A DNA stretch of 64,000 nt, from NCBI RefSeq assembly GCF_024298765.1, contig NZ_CP101210.1; one strand, given 5' to 3'. Below the pieces are notes generated by a model. It saw only the letters and a list, made by a program, of their open reading frames with translations. It did no database searches and was not told the DNA's origin. Numbering within the stretch: the stretch's first letter is position 1; every line of letters begins with the position of its first letter. Source of the stretch: Escherichia coli (GTDB lineage Bacteria > Pseudomonadota > Gammaproteobacteria > Enterobacterales > Enterobacteriaceae). Of the stretch, positions 2 to 37,613 are shown in pieces. Made by a program: the position numbers and the translations under genes.

Positions 2-286
2 GCCCCTGAAGAGCTACTCAATCACACACAGCGTATCGAATTGCAGCAAGGTCGCGTCCGTAAAGCTGAACGCTGGGGACCGCGCACGCTGGATCTCGAC
101 ATCATGCTGTTTGGTAATGAAGTAATAAATACCGAACGTCTGACCGTTCCGCACTACGATATGAAAAATCGCGGCTTTATGCTGTGGCCACTGTTTGAAA
201 TTGCGCCGGAATTGCTATTTCCTGATGGCTTATCATTAGTTGAAGCTCTACAGGCAAAAGGCTTTAATGAATTAGATAAGTGGTAA
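2..286 (+). CDS. folK: 2-amino-4-hydroxy-6-hydroxymethyldihydropteridine pyrophosphokinase (HPPK), 3' portion only; 5' end lies outside the window
   Basis: ORF 41..286 translation matches the HPPK C-terminus; reading frame is open back to the window edge; position next to the yad fimbrial operon fits the known map. Confidence 0.85.
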   Translation, partial: APEELLNHTQRIELQQGRVRKAERWGPRTLDLDIMLFGNEVINTERLTVPHYDMKNRGFMLWPLFEIAPELLFPDGLSLVEALQAKGFNELDKW

Positions 287-647
287 TTATTATTCGTGTG
301 AATATAAATATATTCTGAAAACAACCTCAAGTTATTGCCAAAACAATATCATTAAGATAAATAAAATTTTAGAAAATATAATATACCTTCCCGTAATTCT
401 CACGCCATACACTATCCCTCTTAGCTTTCAAATTTAATTTTACTAACTTTTATTTTTAGTAAAATTAAATTGCATATGCTATCACATTATGCAAAATAGC
501 CATCCCGATGATGAATGAATGTAATAGTTGGTAAACAACAGACAAACATCATTAACACAGTAACGATTTTGTTACGCAGCATTGCAGCAGACTCTTATCG
601 TCATGCGGTGCGGTTATCTCTCTATGGAATATTATTCAAGGATTTTT

Positions 648-1238
648 ATGTCTAAAAAATTAGGTTTTGCGCTGTCTGGTATTATGTTGGCAATGGCTGC
701 TGGTACTGCATTTGCTGCTAACGATATGGACGGTGGTCAGTTAAATATTAGCGGCCTGGTCGTTGATAACACCTGTGAAGCTCGTGTTGATGGCGGTAAC
801 AAAGATGGTTTGATCCTGCTGCAAACCGCTACTGTTGCTGAAATCACCGATGGTGTACTGGATACCACCGTAGGTGCTAAAGCTAAGCCATTCAGCATTA
901 CTATTGACTGCAGCAAAGCTAACCCGGCTCCGGGTACTACTGCAAAAATGACTTTCGGTTCCGTGTTCTTTAGCAATAGCAAAGGTACTCTGAATAACGA
1001 TATGTCTATCAATAATCCATCTGATGGTGTGAATATTGCCCTGCATAATATTGAAGGTTCCACTATTAAGCAGGTTCAGGTTAATAATCCGGGTGATGTT
1101 TACAGCAAAACTCTGGATGCAACGTCTAAAACTGCAACCTACGATTTTAAAGCATCCTATGTTCGTGCTGATGCAAGCAAAGCAGCAACTGCCGGTTATG
1201 TAAAAACTAACTCAGCATATACCATTACTTACCAGTAA
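648..1238 (+). CDS. yadN: fimbrial major subunit of the Yad chaperone-usher fimbriae
   Basis: ORF 582..1238 trimmed to the ATG at 648 ([11 protein letters not shown]..., signal peptide ending AFA); fimbrial-subunit C-terminus; first gene of the fimbrial operon. Confidence 0.85.
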
Positions 1239-1346
1239 ATATCAGCCACCTAAATTGATTGGGTGAATATATATAGGGAATAACATCAAACATATTTATT
1301 TTTGAACGTTATTCCCTGTTTTAATTAACTCTGTGAGGAACGGTTT

Positions 1347-2087
1347 ATGTTTTTTAATACTAAACATACCGCAGCATTGTGCTTAGCGAGCTGTATGGCT
1401 TTTAGCTCATCAGCTATTGCAGACATCGTAATTTCAGGTACTCGCGTAGTTTATAAAAGCGAACAAAAAAGCGTCAATGTGCGTCTGGAAAATAAAGGCA
1501 ATAACCCATTGCTGGTTCAGAGTTGGTTAGATACTGGAGATGACAACGCTGAACCAGGCAGTATTACTGTCCCCTTTACCGCTACGCCACCAGTATCACG
1601 TATTGATGCTAAACGTGGCCAAACAATCAAACTGATGTACACCGCCAGTAGTGCTCTGCCAAAAGACAGAGAAAGTGTGTTCTGGTTTAACGTACTGGAA
1701 GTTCCACCAAAACCCGATGCAGCAAAAGCAGCAAATCAAAGCCTGCTACAACTGGCATTTCGTACACGTATAAAACTGTTCTATCGCCCGGAAGGATTGA
1801 GTGGAATTCCATCTGATGCGCCATTGGCTCTGAAGTGGTCCTGGGCAACATCTGAAGGCAAAGCGGCATTACGCGTTGATAACCCTACGCCCTACTATGT
1901 CTCTTTTAGCAGTGGTGATTTAGAAGCCAACGGCAAACGCTATCCCCTGGATGTGAAAATGATTGCGCCGTTCAGTAACGACGTCATCAAGGTAAATGGG
2001 ATGAGTGGCAGAACAAGCTCTGCAAAAGTGCATTTTTTCGCCATTAATGATTTTGGCGGCTCTATTGAAGGCAACGCCAACCTTTAA
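1347..2087 (+). CDS. ecpD: periplasmic fimbrial chaperone (PapD-like)
   Basis: 246-aa ORF with signal peptide and chaperone-like sequence; synonym yadV. Confidence 0.9.
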   Translation: MFFNTKHTAALCLASCMAFSSSAIADIVISGTRVVYKSEQKSVNVRLENKGNNPLLVQSWLDTGDDNAEPGSITVPFTATPPVSRIDAKRGQTIKLMYTASSALPKDRESVFWFNVLEVPPKPDAAKAANQSLLQLAFRTRIKLFYRPEGLSGIPSDAPLALKWSWATSEGKAALRVDNPTPYYVSFSSGDLEANGKRYPLDVKMIAPFSNDVIKVNGMSGRTSSAKVHFFAINDFGGSIEGNANL

Positions 2088-2121
2088 TCTGGCAAGGATA
2101 TACCACAGCAGGAAGCAGAAC

Positions 2122-4722
2122 GTGACTATTAAATCCACTAAAAAATATCATAATCACCTTACCCGCATCGCCACGTTTTGCGCGCTGCTGTATAGCAACA
2201 GTGCTTTATGCGCTGAACTCGTCGAATATGACCATACATTTCTGATGGGAAAGGATGCTTCAAATATCGACCTTAGTCGGTATACAGAAGGCAACCCGAC
2301 ACTACCAGGCATTTACGATGTCAGTGTGTATGTTAACGATCAACCTATCATGAGCCAAAGCATTGCTTTTACTGTTATTGAAGGTAAAAAGAACGCTCAG
2401 GCCTGCATTACGCAGAAAAATTTATTGCAATTTCATATCAGTTCACCAGACAAGAATAGCGAAAAAGCCATTTTGCTTAAGCGAGACGAAGATCTTGGTG
2501 ATTGCCTCAATCTGGCTGAAATGATCCCTCAATCATCCATTCGTTACGATGTTAACGATCAACGCCTGGATATCGACGTCCCCCAGGCATGGATTATGAA
2601 GAATTATCAAAACTATGTTGATCCCTCTTTGTGGGAAAATGGCATTAATGCAGCCATGCTTTCCTACAACCTCAATGGATATCACAGTGAAAGTCCAGGC
2701 AGAACAAATGACAGTATCTATGCGGCATTCAACGGTGGGATAAACTTAGGCGCGTGGCGGTTACGTGCCTCAGGTAACTACAACTGGATGACCAATGTCC
2801 ATAGTGATTATGATTTTCAGAATCGCTATTTACAACGCGATCTTGCGTCACTACGTTCACAACTGGTTATTGGTGAATCTTACACGACCGGCGAGACCTT
2901 CGATTCAGTCAGCATTCGCGGTATTCGCTTATACAGTGACAGTCGAATGCTGCCTCCGGTATTAGCCAGTTTTGCGCCAATCATTCATGGCGTAGCGAAT
3001 ACCAATGCCAAAGTAACCGTTATGCAAAATGGTTATAAAATCTATGAAACGACGGTGCCGCCAGGGGCCTTTGCCATTGATGATCTTAGCCCGTCAGGTT
3101 ATGGCAGTGATCTCATTGTGACTATCGAAGAAGCTGATGGCACAAAACGGACGTTCTCCCAGCCATTTTCATCTGTTGTGCAAATGCTGCGCCCTGGCGT
3201 TGGTCGCTGGGATATTAGCGCCGGTCAGGTTTTAAAAGACAGTATCCAGGATGAGCCTAATTTATTTCAAGCCAGCTACTACTATGGTTTGAATAACTAC
3301 CTGACAGGATATACCGGTATTCAGCTAACTGATAATAACTATACCGCCGGATTGCTGGGGCTTGGTATGAATACCCCCGTGGGGGCTTTTTCTGTCGATG
3401 TTACTCACTCAAATGTCAGCATTCCGGACGATAAAACCTATCAAGGACAAAGCTACCGTATTTCCTGGAACAAGTTATTTGAAAATACCAGTACATCATT
3501 AAATATCGCGGCCTATCGCTACTCCACCCAGCATTATCTGGGCCTCAATGATGCGCTGACGCTGATTGATGAAGTAGAACATCCTGAGCAAGATCTTGAG
3601 CCTAAATCCATGCGCAATTACTCGCGCATGAAAAATCAGGTCACGGTCAGTATCAACCAACCGCTGAAATTTGAGAAAAAGGATTACGGTTCATTTTATC
3701 TCTCGGGAAGCTGGTCAGATTACTGGGCCTCCGGACAAAACAGTACTAATTACTCTATTGGTTATAGCAATAGTGCGTCCTGGGGCAGTTACAGTATCAG
3801 TGCTCAACGTTCGTTGAATGAAGATGGTCAAACCGACGATAGCATTTATCTCAGCTTCACGATTCCAATAGAAAATTTACTGGGTACGGAACACCGCAGC
3901 TCCGGCTTCCAGAGTATTGATACACAATTAAACAGCGACTTTAAGGGTAATAACCAACTCAATATCAGCAGTAGTGGTTACAGCGATACCAATCGCATCA
4001 GCTACAGCGTAAACACGGGTTATATGATGAATAAATCCAGTGATGACCTGAGTTATATCGGCGGTTATGCCAGTTATGAATCGCCGTGGGGAACTCTGTC
4101 AGGTTCAGCCTCAGCAAGCAGTGATAATAGTCGCCAATTCTCACTCAATACTGATGGTGGATTTGTGTTACATAGCGGCGGGCTGACGTTCAGTAATGAC
4201 AGTTTTAGTGATTCCGACACTCTGGCTGTCATTCAGGCGCCAGGAGCAAAAGGCGCTCGTATTAACTACGGAAACAGCACCGTAGACCGCTGGGGTTATG
4301 GTGTGACCAGCGCCCTTTCGCCATACCATGAAAACCGTATCGCACTGGACATTAACGATCTGGAAAACGATGTTGAATTGAAAAGCACCAGTACTGTCGC
4401 CGTCCCGCTCCAGGGAGCCGTCGTCTTTGCTGATTTTGAAACAGTTCAGGGACAATCGGCAATTATGAATATCGTGCGAAGCGATGGTAAAAATATTCCA
4501 TTTGCAGCGGATATTTATGATGAACAAAACAATATCATCGGCAACGTAGGTCAGGGTGGTCAGGCCTTTGTTCGCGGTATCGGGCAGGAAGGAAATATAC
4601 GAATTACCTGGATTGAAGAGGGCAAACCAGTCAGTTGTTTTGCTCATTACCAACAAAACACGACATCAGAAAAAATAGCGCAATCTATTATTCTGAACGG
4701 ACTTCGTTGTCAGATACAGTAA
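2122..4722 (+). CDS. htrE: outer-membrane fimbrial usher
   Basis: ORF 2005..4722 trimmed to the GTG at 2122, which is preceded by AGGAAG; about 866 aa, typical usher size, with a Cys pair near the C-terminus. Confidence 0.9.
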   Translation: MTIKSTKKYHNHLTRIATFCALLYSNSALCAELVEYDHTFLMGKDASNIDLSRYTEGNPTLPGIYDVSVYVNDQPIMSQSIAFTVIEGKKNAQACITQKNLLQFHISSPDKNSEKAILLKRDEDLGDCLNLAEMIPQSSIRYDVNDQRLDIDVPQAWIMKNYQNYVDPSLWENGINAAMLSYNLNGYHSESPGRTNDSIYAAFNGGINLGAWRLRASGNYNWMTNVHSDYDFQNRYLQRDLASLRSQLVIGESYTTGETFDSVSIRGIRLYSDSRMLPPVLASFAPIIHGVANTNAKVTVMQNGYKIYETTVPPGAFAIDDLSPSGYGSDLIVTIEEADGTKRTFSQPFSSVVQMLRPGVGRWDISAGQVLKDSIQDEPNLFQASYYYGLNNYLTGYTGIQLTDNNYTAGLLGLGMNTPVGAFSVDVTHSNVSIPDDKTYQGQSYRISWNKLFENTSTSLNIAAYRYSTQHYLGLNDALTLIDEVEHPEQDLEPKSMRNYSRMKNQVTVSINQPLKFEKKDYGSFYLSGSWSDYWASGQNSTNYSIGYSNSASWGSYSISAQRSLNEDGQTDDSIYLSFTIPIENLLGTEHRSSGFQSIDTQLNSDFKGNNQLNISSSGYSDTNRISYSVNTGYMMNKSSDDLSYIGGYASYESPWGTLSGSASASSDNSRQFSLNTDGGFVLHSGGLTFSNDSFSDSDTLAVIQAPGAKGARINYGNSTVDRWGYGVTSALSPYHENRIALDINDLENDVELKSTSTVAVPLQGAVVFADFETVQGQSAIMNIVRSDGKNIPFAADIYDEQNNIIGNVGQGGQAFVRGIGQEGNIRITWIEEGKPVSCFAHYQQNTTSEKIAQSIILNGLRCQIQ

Positions 4723-4738
4723 CCACAAGGGACTTCCA

Positions 4739-5311
4739 ATGATAAAAACCACACCACATAAAATAGCAATACTCATGGGGCTATTATTATCGCCATCTGT
4801 ATTTGCAACGGATGTTAATGTCGATTTTACCGCTACCGTGAAAGCGACAACATGTAACATCACCCTGACATCGCTGAATGGTTCAAACGTCGTTGATAAT
4901 GGCAATGATAGTTATACCCTGATAATCCCCAAGATGGGACTGGATAAGATAGTCAATAAAGCGTCACAATCTGAGGCCAACTTCAAATTAGTCGCCAGTG
5001 GGTGTAGCAGTGGAATTAGCTGGATTGATACCACAATGACTGGAAATCAGTCTGGTAGTACATCGCTGATTATTCCACAATCTTCTGACTCCTCCTCAAC
5101 AACCAGTAATATTGGTATGGGATTTAAAAGATTAGAGACTTCGGGCGATACGTTTCTGAAACCCAATAGCGCGGAATACATCCGCTGGAAAACCACAGAA
5201 ATTAGCACCAGTGGTCTGGAAATGACTGTCGCACTGCGCGAAACAACCCCAGGACAGGGCATACCCGGGAAATTTCGCGCACAGGCAACGTTCAATTTCA
5301 TCTATCAATAA
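4739..5311 (+). CDS. yadM: fimbrial minor subunit
   Basis: 190-aa ORF with signal peptide; fimbrial subunit-like; operon context. Confidence 0.8.
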   Translation: MIKTTPHKIAILMGLLLSPSVFATDVNVDFTATVKATTCNITLTSLNGSNVVDNGNDSYTLIIPKMGLDKIVNKASQSEANFKLVASGCSSGISWIDTTMTGNQSGSTSLIIPQSSDSSSTTSNIGMGFKRLETSGDTFLKPNSAEYIRWKTTEISTSGLEMTVALRETTPGQGIPGKFRAQATFNFIYQ

Positions 5312-5325
5312 CAAGGATGACAATG

Positions 5326-5931
5326 ATGATATTAAAAAAATTATGTTATGGATTATCGGGTAGTCTATTTCTGGCTTCATCACTGTTAACCATTTCCTCA
5401 CATGCGGCCACTGATAGTATTGGCCTGACTGTTACTACAGACATAGAAATGGGTACCTGTACATCAACGTTGACTGATGACGGTACAGCTAAACTGTCCA
5501 CCATCAATTTCGGTGATGTATATATTTCTGAAATTAATGCCGAAACTAAAATTAAAACCTTCAAATTGCAGTTCAAAGACTGTGCGGGGATTCCCGGGAA
5601 AAAGGCCAAAATAAAGTTGACCCCACGAGCCTTATGCGAAGGTAATTCTAATAACGGCCCTGGATTTGCTAACGCATCAACGGCAACAGCAAAAGCAGCG
5701 GCAGTCGCCGTTGAGGTCTGGAGTACGTCCACACCAGGTAAAAACGGCGCAAAACAATTCAGTTGCGTCACCCCCGCAACAGAAGAAGTCAGTATTGCTG
5801 GTGCGACGGGAGGTGATGTTGTCGATTACCCGATGAGTGCTGTTTTGGTGGTCGCGAAAGATAAAACCGTTACAGATGTCACCGCGGGTGATTTCACCGC
5901 TCCGGCAACATTTACTGTGACTTATAACTAA
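5326..5931 (+). CDS. yadL: fimbrial minor subunit
   Basis: ORF 5317..5931; AAGGA at 5313-5317 favours the ATG at 5323 or 5326; signal peptide; fimbrial-like. Confidence 0.8.
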   Translation: MILKKLCYGLSGSLFLASSLLTISSHAATDSIGLTVTTDIEMGTCTSTLTDDGTAKLSTINFGDVYISEINAETKIKTFKLQFKDCAGIPGKKAKIKLTPRALCEGNSNNGPGFANASTATAKAAAVAVEVWSTSTPGKNGAKQFSCVTPATEEVSIAGATGGDVVDYPMSAVLVVAKDKTVTDVTAGDFTAPATFTVTYN

Positions 5932-34934: not shown

Positions 34935-35699
34935 CTAATTCTTTCGTTGCTCCAGACGACGTAGAGAACGCTCACGGCGGCTCTCTTCACGGCTTCTGTC
35001 GAGCAAAATTTCTTCGATAAAGGCCAGATGGCGATGCGATGCTTCGCGCGCTTCTTCCGGCTTACCGGCCATAATCGCTTCAAATATGCGGGTGCGGTGA
35101 CTACTCACCAGCGGCAGCATCTCGCGACGCGAATAGAGCAATTCGAAGTTCTGGCGGACATTCTGGGCCAACATCGGCTCCATACACCTTAGCAGATGAA
35201 GCAGAACCACATTGTGGGCCGCTTCGGTGACGGCAATCTGATACTGGAGTACGGCATTTGATTCCGCGTCCAGATCGCCAGACTGCTGCGCCAGCTCTAT
35301 GGCGTGGTGGAGTTCACGGATGCGTTCCTTGTCTTCATCGGTACTACGCAGCGCGGCGTAATAAGCGGCGATACCTTCCAGGGCGTGTCGTGTTTCGAGC
35401 AAGTCATACTGTGATTCAGGATGGTCGGAGAGCAGCTCCACCAGCGGATCGCTGAAGCTTTGCCATAGGCTGCTCTGGACAAAAGTGCCGCCACCCTGGC
35501 GACGAAGCAACAAGCCCTTCGCTTCGAGACGTTGAATCGCCTCACGCAATGAGGGACGGGAGACGTCAAACTGTTTTGCCAGTTCGCGTTCCGGTGGGAG
35601 TTTTTCGCCCGGGCGGAGAGTGCCTTCGAGGATCAAAAACTCCAGTTGCTGCTCAATCACATCGGAGAGTTTTGGTTGGCGGATTTTGCTGTAGGCCAT
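34935..35699 (-). CDS. pdhR: GntR-family pyruvate-responsive transcriptional repressor
   Basis: ORF 34935..35732 trimmed to [17 protein letters not shown] (254 aa). Confidence 0.9.
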
Positions 35700-35730
35700 G
35701 AGTTCCTGTCTTAAGCCACTTGCCGAAGTC

Positions 35731-35747
35731 AATTGGTCTTACCAATT
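35731..35747. promoter_or_regulatory. PdhR operator palindrome AATTGGTcttACCAATT in the pdhR promoter/leader
   Basis: perfect palindrome read from the sequence, about 32 bp upstream of the pdhR start; matches the known PdhR box. Confidence 0.75.
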
Positions 35748-36151
35748 TCATGTCTGTGACGCTAAAGTAACAAAGTATTCACCTTATGTCCATACAGGTT
35801 TTGATTGAAATCATGAAACTGTGCACATTTTAACAACTTGACATATATAACGTTTCAAAGTTGTAACTATGCACAAATGTAGACTTTACGTAAGAAAGGG
35901 ATTTTTTAACGATTATTAAACTATAAAAATCCGAATTGAACCGATTCACTTACCAATTTATCGATTTTTAATTCAAAAATAATGAATTTATATTCATTTT
36001 GTATGTTGAGGGGATTTGAGGCTGACCTTTACAAACGGTTCCTTTTTAAGCAACTCATCTTCAACCATGCATAAAGCGGGTGCATTCGCTGCCGTATACC
36101 ATTATTCTTTATCTGACGGAAGTCCTTTTGTAACAATTCAAACGTCTTTGA

Positions 36152-36169
36152 TGTAAACAAATTAATACA
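36152..36169. promoter_or_regulatory. putative TyrR box (TGTAAA-N6-AATACA) in the aroP upstream region
   Basis: resembles the TGTAAA-N6-TTTACA consensus; aroP is a known TyrR target; exact site not verified. Confidence 0.35.
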
Positions 36170-36242
36170 AAAAACGGAATTGCAAACTTACACACGCATC
36201 ACTGCGTAGATCAAAAAAACAATCACCGCACGAGGTTTCATA

Positions 36243-37613
36243 ATGGAAGGTCAACAGCACGGCGAGCAGCTAAAGCGCGGCCTTAAAAACCGCCATATTC
36301 AGCTTATCGCGCTGGGTGGCGCGATAGGGACAGGGCTATTCCTGGGTAGCGCCTCCGTAATACAGTCCGCAGGGCCAGGGATTATCCTGGGTTACGCCAT
36401 TGCTGGTTTTATCGCCTTTCTGATCATGCGTCAGCTAGGTGAAATGGTGGTCGAAGAACCTGTCGCAGGCTCCTTTAGCCACTTTGCTTATAAATACTGG
36501 GGCAGTTTTGCCGGTTTCGCCTCTGGCTGGAACTACTGGGTACTGTACGTTTTAGTTGCCATGGCAGAGCTGACTGCCGTGGGTAAATACATTCAGTTCT
36601 GGTATCCGGAAATCCCAACCTGGGTTTCTGCCGCCGTGTTCTTTGTGGTGATCAACGCCATCAACCTGACAAACGTAAAAGTGTTTGGCGAGATGGAGTT
36701 CTGGTTTGCCATTATCAAAGTTATCGCGGTGGTAGCGATGATCATCTTCGGTGCCTGGCTGCTATTCAGCGGCAACGGCGGCCCGCAGGCGAGCGTTAGC
36801 AACCTGTGGGATCAGGGTGGTTTCCTGCCACACGGCTTCACCGGTCTGGTGATGATGATGGCGATTATCATGTTCTCTTTCGGTGGTCTGGAACTGGTGG
36901 GGATCACCGCAGCAGAAGCTGATAACCCGGAGCAAAGTATCCCGAAAGCAACTAACCAGGTTATCTACCGCATCCTGATTTTCTATATTGGTTCGTTAGC
37001 CGTTCTGCTCTCACTAATGCCGTGGACCCGCGTTACCGCCGATACCAGTCCGTTTGTGCTGATCTTCCACGAGTTAGGCGATACCTTTGTAGCGAATGCG
37101 CTGAATATCGTGGTACTGACTGCTGCGCTCTCCGTGTACAACAGCTGCGTATATTGCAACAGCCGTATGCTGTTCGGTCTGGCACAACAAGGGAACGCGC
37201 CAAAAGCGCTGGCGTCTGTCGATAAACGCGGCGTACCGGTTAACACTATTCTGGTGTCTGCGCTGGTTACGGCATTGTGCGTACTGATTAACTACCTTGC
37301 CCCAGAGTCCGCTTTCGGACTGTTAATGGCGCTGGTGGTATCTGCACTGGTCATCAACTGGGCGATGATCAGTCTGGCGCATATGAAATTCCGTCGTGCC
37401 AAGCAGGAACAAGGCGTGGTAACTCGCTTCCCTGCTCTGCTTTATCCGCTGGGTAACTGGATCTGCCTGCTGTTTATGGCGGCGGTACTGGTGATTATGC
37501 TGATGACCCCAGGAATGGCGATTTCGGTATACCTGATCCCGGTATGGCTGATCGTGTTAGGTATCGGCTATCTGTTTAAAGAGAAAACCGCCAAAGCCGT
37601 AAAAGCGCATTAA
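36243..37613 (+). CDS. aroP: aromatic amino acid:H+ symporter (APC family)
   Basis: 456-aa hydrophobic ORF recognised as AroP. Confidence 0.9.
   Translation: MEGQQHGEQLKRGLKNRHIQLIALGGAIGTGLFLGSASVIQSAGPGIILGYAIAGFIAFLIMRQLGEMVVEEPVAGSFSHFAYKYWGSFAGFASGWNYWVLYVLVAMAELTAVGKYIQFWYPEIPTWVSAAVFFVVINAINLTNVKVFGEMEFWFAIIKVIAVVAMIIFGAWLLFSGNGGPQASVSNLWDQGGFLPHGFTGLVMMMAIIMFSFGGLELVGITAAEADNPEQSIPKATNQVIYRILIFYIGSLAVLLSLMPWTRVTADTSPFVLIFHELGDTFVANALNIVVLTAALSVYNSCVYCNSRMLFGLAQQGNAPKALASVDKRGVPVNTILVSALVTALCVLINYLAPESAFGLLMALVVSALVINWAMISLAHMKFRRAKQEQGVVTRFPALLYPLGNWICLLFMAAVLVIMLMTPGMAISVYLIPVWLIVLGIGYLFKEKTAKAVKAH

What the first reader, a model, noticed from the sequence alone, without database searches (positions are those of the whole stretch)
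35700..36242. pdhR-aroP divergent control region with PdhR palindrome and candidate TyrR box
AATTGGTcttACCAATT (35731..35747) is a perfect palindrome just upstream of the pdhR start, consistent with autoregulation of the pdhR-aceEF-lpd operon. TGTAAA-N6-AATACA (36152..36169) upstream of aroP resembles a TyrR box. Both are expected features; their exact roles are inferred from position only.
Basis: partly seen in the sequence, partly recalled or inferred. Interest (0 to 1): 0.2.

Follow-up and report, generated by a model that had tools for sequence, protein, structure and literature searches.

The report
Known pdhR–aroP control region

Summary
The window is an E. coli chromosome. Positions 35700-36242 are the 543-bp spacer between pdhR (minus strand) and aroP (plus strand).

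**PdhR site.** AATTGGTcttACCAATT (35731-35747) is the only exact PdhR-box match in the 64 kb. It is identical to the K-12 operator, the strongest PdhR site found by genomic SELEX. It lies at +11 to +27 of the mapped pdhR transcript start (35757). Its two arms are invariant in 79 distinct Enterobacteriaceae spacers, while its 3-bp spacer varies.

**TyrR site.** TGTAAAcaaattAATACA (36152-36169) is identical to K-12. It meets the published strong-box definition: 10 of 12 consensus bases, with G and C 14 bp apart. It is not above chance on its own, since 2.5 such matches are expected per window.

**Also missed.** It also missed the FNR site at -50.5 of pdhR.

Already known; low interest.

The parts
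34935..35699 (-). pdhR coding sequence (254 aa plus stop). The true start is the ATG at 35699.
   Evidence: ORF list. Pfam GntR 9.8e-26 plus FCD 4.9e-17. RefSeq pdhR in identical E. coli records has the same 765-nt extent. The ORF lister's extension to a TTG at 35732 is mechanical and runs into the operator.
35731..35747 (.). PdhR operator AATTGGTcttACCAATT, at +11 to +27 of the pdhR transcript
   Evidence: Identical to K-12. Listed as the K-12 PdhR box, 14/14, top SELEX peak (PMC7660256). Exactly one perfect box in each of 80 loci, 30-48 bp before the pdhR ATG. Arms are 100% invariant; the spacer has 5 variants.
35757..35757 (-). pdhR transcription start (an A, 58 nt before the ATG)
   Evidence: The published promoter string GTATGGACATAAGGTGAATACTTTGTTACTTTAGCGTCA and the '58 nucleotides from the ATG' statement (PMC2759082) match the minus strand of 35795..35757 exactly.
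35764..35792 (-). pdhR core promoter: -35 TGGACA (35792..35787), 17-bp spacer, -10 TACTTT (35769..35764)
   Evidence: Placed from the mapped start and found by my hexamer scan. Both hexamers are essentially invariant in 79 spacers. It falls below the consensus scanner's threshold, which explains the empty result.
35801..35814 (.). FNR site TTGATtgaaATCAT, centred at -50.5 of the pdhR start
   Evidence: Sequence. Its centre at 35807.5 is 50.5 bp from 35757, matching the FNR ChIP-seq site at -50.5 for pdhR-aceEF-lpdA, which is directly repressed (PMC3688515). Mean conservation 0.94.
35890..36069 (.). AT-rich, poorly conserved central part of the spacer. The usp island (PAIusp) occupies this segment in other E. 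coli; it is empty here.
   Evidence: GC 0.29 and conservation 0.54. In CFT073 this segment is replaced by IS3, three immunity genes and usp. PMC7142922.
36096..36126 (-). Divergent promoter P3: -10 TGGTAT (36101..36096) and assigned -35 AGGACT (36126..36121), with a 19-bp spacer
   Evidence: The -10 TGGTAT and the UPEC -35 AGTACT are given in PMC7142922. They were located in the window through the CFT073 alignment. K-12 has AAGACT at the -35 position. The -10 is largely conserved.
36103..36108 (+). Invariant TATTCT hexamer next to the P3 -10; candidate aroP P1 -10 (inference only)
   Evidence: T, A, T, T and T are 100% conserved and C is above 90% in 79 spacers. The literature says only that P1 overlaps P3 on the other strand. 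The P1 and P2 starts were not mapped here.
36152..36169 (.). TyrR strong box TGTAAAcaaattAATACA (10/12, G-N14-C)
   Evidence: Identical to K-12. Definition from PMC4374768. GTAAA and AC are invariant; arms 0.91, spacer 0.62. A box of 8-11/12 sits at this aligned place in all 79 spacers.
36175..36192 (.). TyrR weak box CGGAATtgcaaaCTTACA (8/12, G-N14-C), 23 bp from the strong box on the aroP side
   Evidence: Identical to K-12. Arms 0.86, spacer 0.55. Paired with the strong box at a 22-23 bp offset in 69 of 79 spacers and at 24, 27 or 29 bp in three more; 72 of the 79 were checked and show a pair. Its side and adjacency agree with the deletion series of PMC7142922, which runs 403, 315 and 274 bp, so 41 bp carries the strong box.
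36232..37613 (+). aroP ribosome-binding GAGG (36232-36235) and coding sequence (36243-37613, 456 aa)
   Evidence: Pfam AA_permease 1.5e-144. RefSeq aroP in the 100% identical record.

Best explanation
This is the ordinary E. coli pdhR-aroP divergent control region. It consists of two independent, already characterised regulatory modules separated by about 180 bp of AT-rich, poorly conserved DNA.

Module 1, next to pdhR. Transcription of pdhR-aceEF-lpd starts at 35757 from a weak promoter (TGGACA-17-TACTTT). When pyruvate is low, the GntR/FCD repressor PdhR, encoded by the first gene of the operon, binds the perfect palindrome at +11 to +27 and shuts off its own operon. Pyruvate releases it. 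FNR bound at -50.5 adds anaerobic repression.

Module 2, next to aroP. TyrR, loaded with an aromatic amino acid, binds the strong box (36152-36169) and cooperatively the adjacent weak box (36175-36192). Both lie downstream of the main aroP promoter P1. From there TyrR recruits RNA polymerase to the divergent promoter P3 (-10 at 36101..36096), which overlaps P1 on the other strand. P1 is thereby blocked and less AroP transporter is made when its substrates are plentiful.

What was shown here: sequence identity with K-12 at every named site, agreement with the mapped pdhR start and the FNR position, and the conservation footprints.

What is taken from the literature on the identical K-12 sequence: protein binding, release by pyruvate and the P3 mechanism.
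For: Identity of the locus: 5423 of 5426 complete E. coli genomes match the spacer. Strain 104 is 100% identical and K-12 is 95% identical. Annotation gives aceE, pdhR, aroP and ampE.

K-12 and the window are identical from 35690 to 35892 and across both TyrR boxes.

PdhR:
- A unique exact box in the window; 0 of 20,000 spacer shuffles produce one.
- The K-12 site is the top SELEX peak (PMC7660256) and shows 11.6-fold ChIP enrichment (PMC3265435).
- The published start-site string matches exactly, which places the box at +11 to +27 (PMC2759082).
- One perfect box in each of 80 species loci (488 kb in all), always 30-48 bp before the pdhR ATG.
- The arms are invariant while the spacer takes 5 forms.
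- The regulator has GntR and FCD domains.

FNR: the motif centre at -50.5 equals the ChIP-seq site (PMC3688515).

TyrR:
- The strong-box definition is met (PMC4374768).
- A strong+weak pair at 23 bp occurs 0.007 times per window shuffle.
- Arms are conserved (0.91 and 0.86) against box spacers (0.62 and 0.55) and flanks (0.40-0.51).
- The pair is found in 72 of the 79 spacers checked, and a box at the strong-box position in all 79.
- aroP-pdhR divergent synteny holds in 79 of the 80 loci; the remaining one (L033) has too little upstream DNA to tell.
- The mechanism and the two-box arrangement downstream of the P1 start are stated in PMC4374768 and PMC7142922.
- The P3 -10 TGGTAT is present at the expected place.
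Against: No binding or expression was measured for this strain; all functional statements are carried over from K-12.

The primary papers (Quail and Guest 1995; Wang, Yang and Pittard 1997-98; Yang 1999) are not in the held library. The exact P1, P2 and P3 start sites and the footprint limits could therefore not be checked against the window.

The strong TyrR box alone is no better than chance in this window.

The consensus promoter scan found nothing in the region, and my hexamer scoring could not place P1 or P2.

The window differs from K-12 at one base of the assigned P3 -35 (AGGACT against AAGACT) and at one base between the two boxes. The effect of these differences is unknown.
Confidence: 0.93

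Rival explanations
1. The TGTAAA-N6-AATACA match is a chance product of AT-rich spacer DNA and has no regulatory role.
For: One match at up to 2 mismatches against 2.5 expected per window; 93 of 100 shuffles give at least one. There are 75 looser boxes (at least 8/12 with G-N14-C) in the window. A meaningless 8/12 + 8/12 pair also turns up next to pdhR.
Against: It is identical to the K-12 box in a spacer where TyrR binding is reported. An adjacent second box makes the pair rare (0.007 per window shuffle). The arms are conserved while the box spacer and flanks drift across 79 species. The pair is present in 72 of the 79 spacers checked.
Confidence: 0.02
2. TyrR represses aroP mainly as a plain roadblock or occluding operator sitting downstream of the promoters, and P3 plays no real part.
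For: Both boxes lie between the promoters and the aroP start codon. The boxes sit close to where P2 should be, because the P2 -10 is said to overlap the P3 UP element just left of the strong box. A separate paper is devoted to direct TyrR repression of P2 (Yang 1999, cited). Mutating the P3 -35 had no significant effect in the usp study.
Against: [quoted passage not shown] The P3 -10 is conserved across genera. P3 is TyrR- and phenylalanine-activated in reporter fusions.
Confidence: 0.1
3. The PdhR palindrome is a shared operator that also controls aroP.
For: The genomic SELEX study lists the site as type A, lying between two divergent genes, aroP and pdhR.
Against: The box is 495 bp from the aroP ATG and about 350 bp from the P1/P3 core. 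It keeps a fixed distance to pdhR (30-48 bp) while the spacer length varies from 527 to 656 bp. In about a fifth of E. coli genomes several kb of island DNA separate it from aroP. No paper read here reports an effect of PdhR on aroP.
Confidence: 0.03

Closest known systems
E. coli K-12 pdhR operator (Ppdh; Quail and Guest 1995; PdhR box AATTGGTnnnACCAATT)
   Same: Identical sequence from the pdhR ATG to 193 bp upstream. This stretch includes the 17-bp palindrome, the mapped start, the -10, the -35 and the FNR site.
   Different: Nothing within the module. The published table writes the box on the pdhR strand (aag spacer), which is the reverse complement of the window's ctt.
[quoted passage not shown]
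   Same: Both 18-bp boxes are identical. The 23-bp offset and the P3 -10 are the same.
   Different: One base differs between the boxes (A36171 here, C in K-12). One base differs in the assigned P3 -35 (AGGACT against AAGACT). T replaces G at 36110. The first of K-12's two ATG codons is ATA here, so AroP is 456 aa rather than 457 aa.
aroP-usp region of uropathogenic E. coli and Salmonella bongori (PAIusp; PMC7142922)
   Same: The same TyrR boxes and P3 -10 next to aroP; the same pdhR promoter and PdhR box on the other side.
   Different: The window has no island. Its 35890-36069 segment is intact, whereas CFT073 carries usp, three immunity genes and an IS3 there. The CFT073 aroP-proximal 173 bp are only 76% identical to the window. 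In the window P3 therefore drives no known gene.

Membership tests
PdhR operator (PdhR box) | 17-bp palindrome AATTGGTnnnACCAATT (core GGTnnnACC) | tested here: met
   14 of 14 specified bases at 35731-35747. Consensus from PMC7660256.
PdhR operator (PdhR box) | Lies in the promoter region of a PdhR-regulated operon, here at +11 to +27 of the pdhR start | tested here: met
   The published start-site string and the 58-nt leader match the window exactly, giving +1 = 35757 (PMC2759082). The +11 to +27 figure follows from those coordinates.
PdhR operator (PdhR box) | The cognate GntR/FCD regulator is encoded next to it (autoregulation) | tested here: met
   GntR 9.8e-26 and FCD 4.9e-17. RefSeq product name PdhR.
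PdhR operator (PdhR box) | Conserved as a site across relatives | tested here: met
   One perfect box per locus in 80 species loci; arms invariant, spacer variable.
PdhR operator (PdhR box) | Bound by PdhR and released by pyruvate | not testable with these tools
   Reported for the identical K-12 sequence: SELEX and gel shift (PMC7660256), ChIP (PMC3265435).
TyrR box (strong) | At least 10 of 12 matches to TGTAAA-N6-TTTACA | tested here: met
   10/12 at 36152-36169. Definition in PMC4374768.
TyrR box (strong) | Invariant G and C placed 14 bp apart | tested here: met
   G36153 and C36168. Both are 100% conserved in 79 spacers.
TyrR box (strong) | More frequent than chance as a single motif | tested here: not met
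   One hit against 2.5 expected; 1.9 expected when G-N14-C is required. The motif alone is uninformative; the support comes from context.
TyrR box (weak, dependent on a neighbouring strong box) | Fewer than 10 matches, G-N14-C kept, directly next to a strong box | tested here: met
   CGGAATtgcaaaCTTACA, 8/12, at 36175-36192, 23 bp from the strong box. Conserved at a 22-23 bp offset in 69 of 79 spacers, with three more at 24-29 bp.
TyrR regulon member aroP (P1/P3 arrangement) | A divergent promoter P3 with -10 TGGTAT overlaps P1, with the boxes upstream of P3 | tested here: met
   TGGTAT on the minus strand at 36101..36096. The boxes lie 51-91 bp to the right, which is upstream for P3. Sequence from PMC7142922. 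The P1, P2 and P3 start sites themselves could not be checked because the primary papers are not held.
TyrR regulon member aroP (P1/P3 arrangement) | TyrR binding, and aromatic-amino-acid-dependent repression of aroP | not testable with these tools
   Reported for K-12 (Wang et al. 1997, cited). tyrR is not in the window.

The most novel reading that the evidence does not exclude
Without the usp island, TyrR-activated P3 points straight at pdhR, about 330 bp away on the same strand. No terminator-like site lies between them. P3 transcripts could therefore run into the pdhR promoter and couple aromatic amino acid supply to expression of the pyruvate dehydrogenase operon, by read-through or by interference. 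The window's own P3 -35 allele (AGGACT, between K-12 AAGACT and UPEC AGTACT) might change how strong that effect is. Nothing here tests this. The literature calls P3 in K-12 very weak and non-productive.
Probability: 0.05. Interest if true: 0.4.

Novelty: already known. Interest (0 to 1): 0.08.

Why it matters
It matters little as a discovery. Both sites are textbook operators of E. coli K-12, and this strain carries them unchanged.

Three points have modest value:
- The check gives a clean annotation of the spacer: transcript start, promoter, PdhR box, FNR site, P3 and both TyrR boxes, all in window coordinates.
- It shows how strictly both sites are kept across some 80 enterobacterial species.
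- It shows that a lone TyrR-box match carries no statistical weight, which is a useful caution for the scan.

The strain also lacks the usp genotoxin island that occupies this spacer in about a fifth of complete E. coli genomes.

Tried and rejected
- **Consensus promoter and terminator scan of 35600-36350.** It found nothing. The real pdhR promoter has a 3/6 -10 (TACTTT) and falls below the tool's threshold, so the empty result says nothing.
- **Rfam at E up to 1 on 35500-36500.** No RNA family matched.
- **Primary papers on aroP promoters and PdhR** (PMC179240, PMC179241, PMC107600, PMC103777, PMC1951801). None is held, so P1 and P2 could not be placed from the source.
- **My own relaxed hexamer scoring.** It recovered the pdhR promoter but gave no convincing P1 or P2. 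I report TATTCT (36103-36108) only as a conserved candidate.
- **Small ORFs in the spacer**. All lie in poorly conserved sequence or overlap known sites. I rejected them as genes without further test.
- **A loose, alignment-free search for TyrR box pairs** (at least 7/12). It also flagged 35727 plus 35755 next to pdhR in 64 spacers. These are two 8/12 matches with no strong box, carried along by conservation of the pdhR promoter, so I rejected them as TyrR sites.
- **A CRP-like TGTGCacatttTAACA at 35820-35835.** Its left arm TGT is not conserved outside Escherichia, so I did not assign it, although CRP regulation of pdhR is reported.

Full report
**What is in the sequence**

Reading 35400-36600 shows AATTGGTCTTACCAATT at exactly 35731-35747. 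It has two 7-bp arms that are perfect reverse complements and a 3-bp spacer. TGTAAACAAATTAATACA sits at exactly 36152-36169.

The flanking ORFs are a 254-aa protein on the minus strand ending at the ATG at 35699, and a 456-aa protein on the plus strand starting at 36243. Pfam gives GntR plus FCD for the first and AA_permease for the second.

The 543-bp spacer matches 5423 of 5426 complete E. coli genomes. E. coli strain 104 is 100% identical and K-12 MG1655 is 95% identical. RefSeq annotation of those records names aceE, pdhR, aroP and ampE in the same order.

**Is it more than chance?**

The PdhR pattern ATTGGTNNNACCAAT has a single exact hit in the 64 kb. The other five hits, at 1-2 mismatches, are at background level (6 found, 2.9 expected). 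The full 14-base box never arose in 20,000 shuffles of the spacer.

The TyrR-like box is different. It is the only hit at up to 2 mismatches, but 2.5 are expected and 93 of 100 shuffles produce at least one. By motif alone it is uninformative.

Two things lift it:
It scores 8/12 and keeps the G and C 14 bp apart. It starts 23 bp after the first box. Such a strong-plus-weak pair occurred 0.007 times per window shuffle and 0.0002 times per spacer shuffle. I fixed the 23-bp offset after seeing it, so the honest figure for any offset of 18-30 bp is about ten times higher.
- The cross-species conservation described below.

**Comparison with K-12 and with the literature**

The window and K-12 are identical from the pdhR ATG to 35892, and again across both TyrR boxes. 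Their differences cluster at 35959-36026.

The PdhR box. The genomic SELEX study of PdhR lists the site between aroP and pdhR as AATTGGTaagACCAATT, 14/14, and as the strongest peak in the genome (PMC7660256). That is the window's sequence read on the pdhR strand. PdhR ChIP enriched this site 11.6-fold (PMC3265435).

The pdhR start. The transcript start was mapped by 5' RACE to an A 58 nt before the ATG, with the promoter string GTATGGACATAAGGTGAATACTTTGTTACTTTAGCGTCA (PMC2759082). This string is the exact minus strand of 35795..35757, so +1 is 35757. It follows that:
- the palindrome occupies +11 to +27;
- the -10 is TACTTT (35769..35764);
- the -35 is TGGACA (35792..35787).

The weak -10 explains why the consensus scanner returned nothing.

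The FNR site. TTGATtgaaATCAT (35801-35814) is centred 50.5 bp upstream of that start. This is the position of the FNR ChIP-seq site through which FNR directly represses pdhR-aceEF-lpdA (PMC3688515).

Other regulators. ArcA (two binding regions), CRP and Cra are also reported to bind this region. I did not map them.

**The aroP side**

A strong TyrR box is defined as at least 10 of 12 matches to TGTAAA-N6-TTTACA with an invariant G and C 14 bp apart. Weak boxes have fewer matches and need a neighbouring strong box (PMC4374768). The window's first box meets the strong definition and the second meets the weak one.

The same paper summarises the mechanism. [quoted passage not shown] PMC7142922 adds several details:
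- P2 lies 21 bp downstream of P1.
- The P3 -10 is TGGTAT.
- The weak box is on the aroP side of the strong box. Its deletion series of 403, 315 and 274 bp puts the strong box within 41 bp, the exact span of 36152-36192.
- P3 is activated by TyrR with phenylalanine.

TGGTAT is present on the minus strand at 36101..36096. Aligning CFT073 to the window places the assigned P3 -35 at 36126..36121. It reads AGGACT here, AAGACT in K-12 and AGTACT in UPEC.

I could not place the P1 and P2 starts. The primary papers are not held, and my hexamer scoring was inconclusive. An invariant TATTCT at 36103-36108, directly next to the P3 -10, is my candidate for the P1 -10. This is inference only.

**Conservation across species**

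One scan of species-representative genomes with the PdhR protein returned 80 loci, from Escherichia, Salmonella, Citrobacter, Klebsiella, Raoultella, Kosakonia, Kluyvera, Enterobacter, Lelliottia, Serratia and others. aroP lies divergently upstream of pdhR in 79 of them; the remaining locus (L033) has too little upstream DNA to tell. The spacers are 527-656 bp long.

Every locus has exactly one perfect AATTGGTnnnACCAATT in about 6 kb, always 30-48 bp before the pdhR ATG. In an alignment of 79 distinct spacers, both arms are 100% invariant while the 3-bp spacer takes five forms. This is the pattern expected for a dimer that reads the arms only.

| Feature | Mean identity to the window base |
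|---|---|
| pdhR core promoter | 0.95 |
| FNR site | 0.94 |
| TyrR strong box, arms | 0.91 |
| TyrR strong box, 6-bp spacer | 0.62 |
| TyrR weak box, arms | 0.86 |
| TyrR weak box, spacer | 0.55 |
| Flanks of the TyrR boxes | 0.40-0.51 |

In the strong box, GTAAA and the AC of the right arm are invariant.

An alignment-free search finds the box pair in 68 spacers within 160 bp of the aroP ATG: at a 22-23 bp offset in 65 of them and at 24, 27 or 29 bp in the other three. Of the 11 spacers it missed, I looked at six. The four from Klebsiella and Raoultella (L034, L066, L070, L072) have the pair, again at a 22 bp offset, about 100 bp further from aroP. The other two (L040, L042) have a single 11/12 box. 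The remaining five, also from Klebsiella and Raoultella, were not inspected.

The central 35890-36069 segment is AT-rich (GC 0.29) and poorly conserved (0.54).

**Conclusion**

Both elements are the known K-12 operators, unchanged in this strain.

- Both sites lie downstream of their transcript starts.
- TyrR uses two boxes.
- The published route of P1 repression goes through the divergent promoter P3.
- The pdhR promoter also carries a mapped FNR site.

Nothing here is new. The one speculative idea that the data do not exclude is that P3, which points at pdhR with no terminator-like site in between, reads into the pdhR promoter in strains without the usp island. I give this about 5%.

**Limits**

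No binding or expression data exist for this strain. All functional statements are transferred from K-12 on the basis of sequence identity, through secondary citations for the Pittard and Guest laboratory papers.

Noticed in passing
window 35801-35814: An FNR site, TTGATtgaaATCAT, is centred at -50.5 of the pdhR start. It matches the published FNR ChIP-seq site and is 94% conserved across 79 spacers.
   Followed up: yes
window 35890-36069; L084 (CFT073) 262-5697: About 1060 of 5423 E. coli genomes match less than 80% of the spacer in one piece. In CFT073, the one such genome inspected, the central spacer is replaced by the usp genotoxin island (usp is annotated there as TssD, 593 aa, with three immunity genes) plus an IS3 element. 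The window lacks the island. The CFT073 aroP-proximal 173 bp are only 76% identical to the window, yet both TyrR boxes and the P3 -10 are kept.
   Followed up: partly
L058 1020-3000 (Superficieibacter sp. 1612_C1): The aroP-pdhR spacer is 1981 bp long. It holds two ORFs matching usp residues 1-182 (79% identity) and 224-386 (77%). No ORF of at least 60 aa in the spacer matched the rest of usp (its C-terminal third), and the other ORFs were not compared with the immunity genes. This looks like a decayed usp island at the same site in another genus.
   Followed up: partly
window 36240-36245: K-12 aroP begins ATGATG (457 aa), but the window has ATAATG. The first ATG is lost and AroP is 456 aa. 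This is the same protein (WP_000399017.1) as in strain 104 and CFT073.
   Followed up: partly
window 35959-36026: Almost all differences from K-12 in the spacer fall in this 68-bp stretch, while the two ends are near-identical. This is a local patch of divergence inside the poorly conserved centre.
   Followed up: no
window 35824-35838, 35860-35876, 36070-36088: Three blocks conserved across genera have no factor assigned here: CACATTTTAACAAC, GTTGTAACTATGCACAA and CATAAAGCgGGTGCATTC. The first two may belong to the reported ArcA, CRP or Cra binding upstream of pdhR. The third lies just upstream of the P1/P3 core.
   Followed up: no
window 36121-36126 and 36171: The assigned P3 -35 is AGGACT here, AAGACT in K-12 and AGTACT in UPEC. 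One base between the two TyrR boxes also differs from K-12 (A here, C in K-12). Any effect on P3 strength is unknown.
   Followed up: no
window 36186-36203: A C/A-rich stretch (AACTTACACACGCATCAC) in the aroP leader overlaps the right arm of the weak TyrR box. aroP is a verified target of the small RNA GcvB, whose R1 seed pairs with C/A-rich sequences (PMC11878033). The pairing site was not determined here, and this stretch is poorly conserved beyond the box.
   Followed up: no
L066, L070-L076, L034 (Klebsiella, Raoultella): These spacers are about 100 bp longer (643-656 bp). The extra DNA lies between the TyrR boxes and the aroP start codon, so the boxes sit about 170-200 bp from the ATG rather than about 50-90 bp.
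   Followed up: partly
L042: A contig titled 'Chryseobacterium sp. 18061' carries an enterobacterial pdhR (93% identical) and aroP. This is probably a mislabelled or contaminated assembly.
   Followed up: no
window 34935-35732: The mechanical ORF list extends pdhR to a TTG at 35732, inside the PdhR box. The annotated and conserved start is the ATG at 35699.
   Followed up: yes
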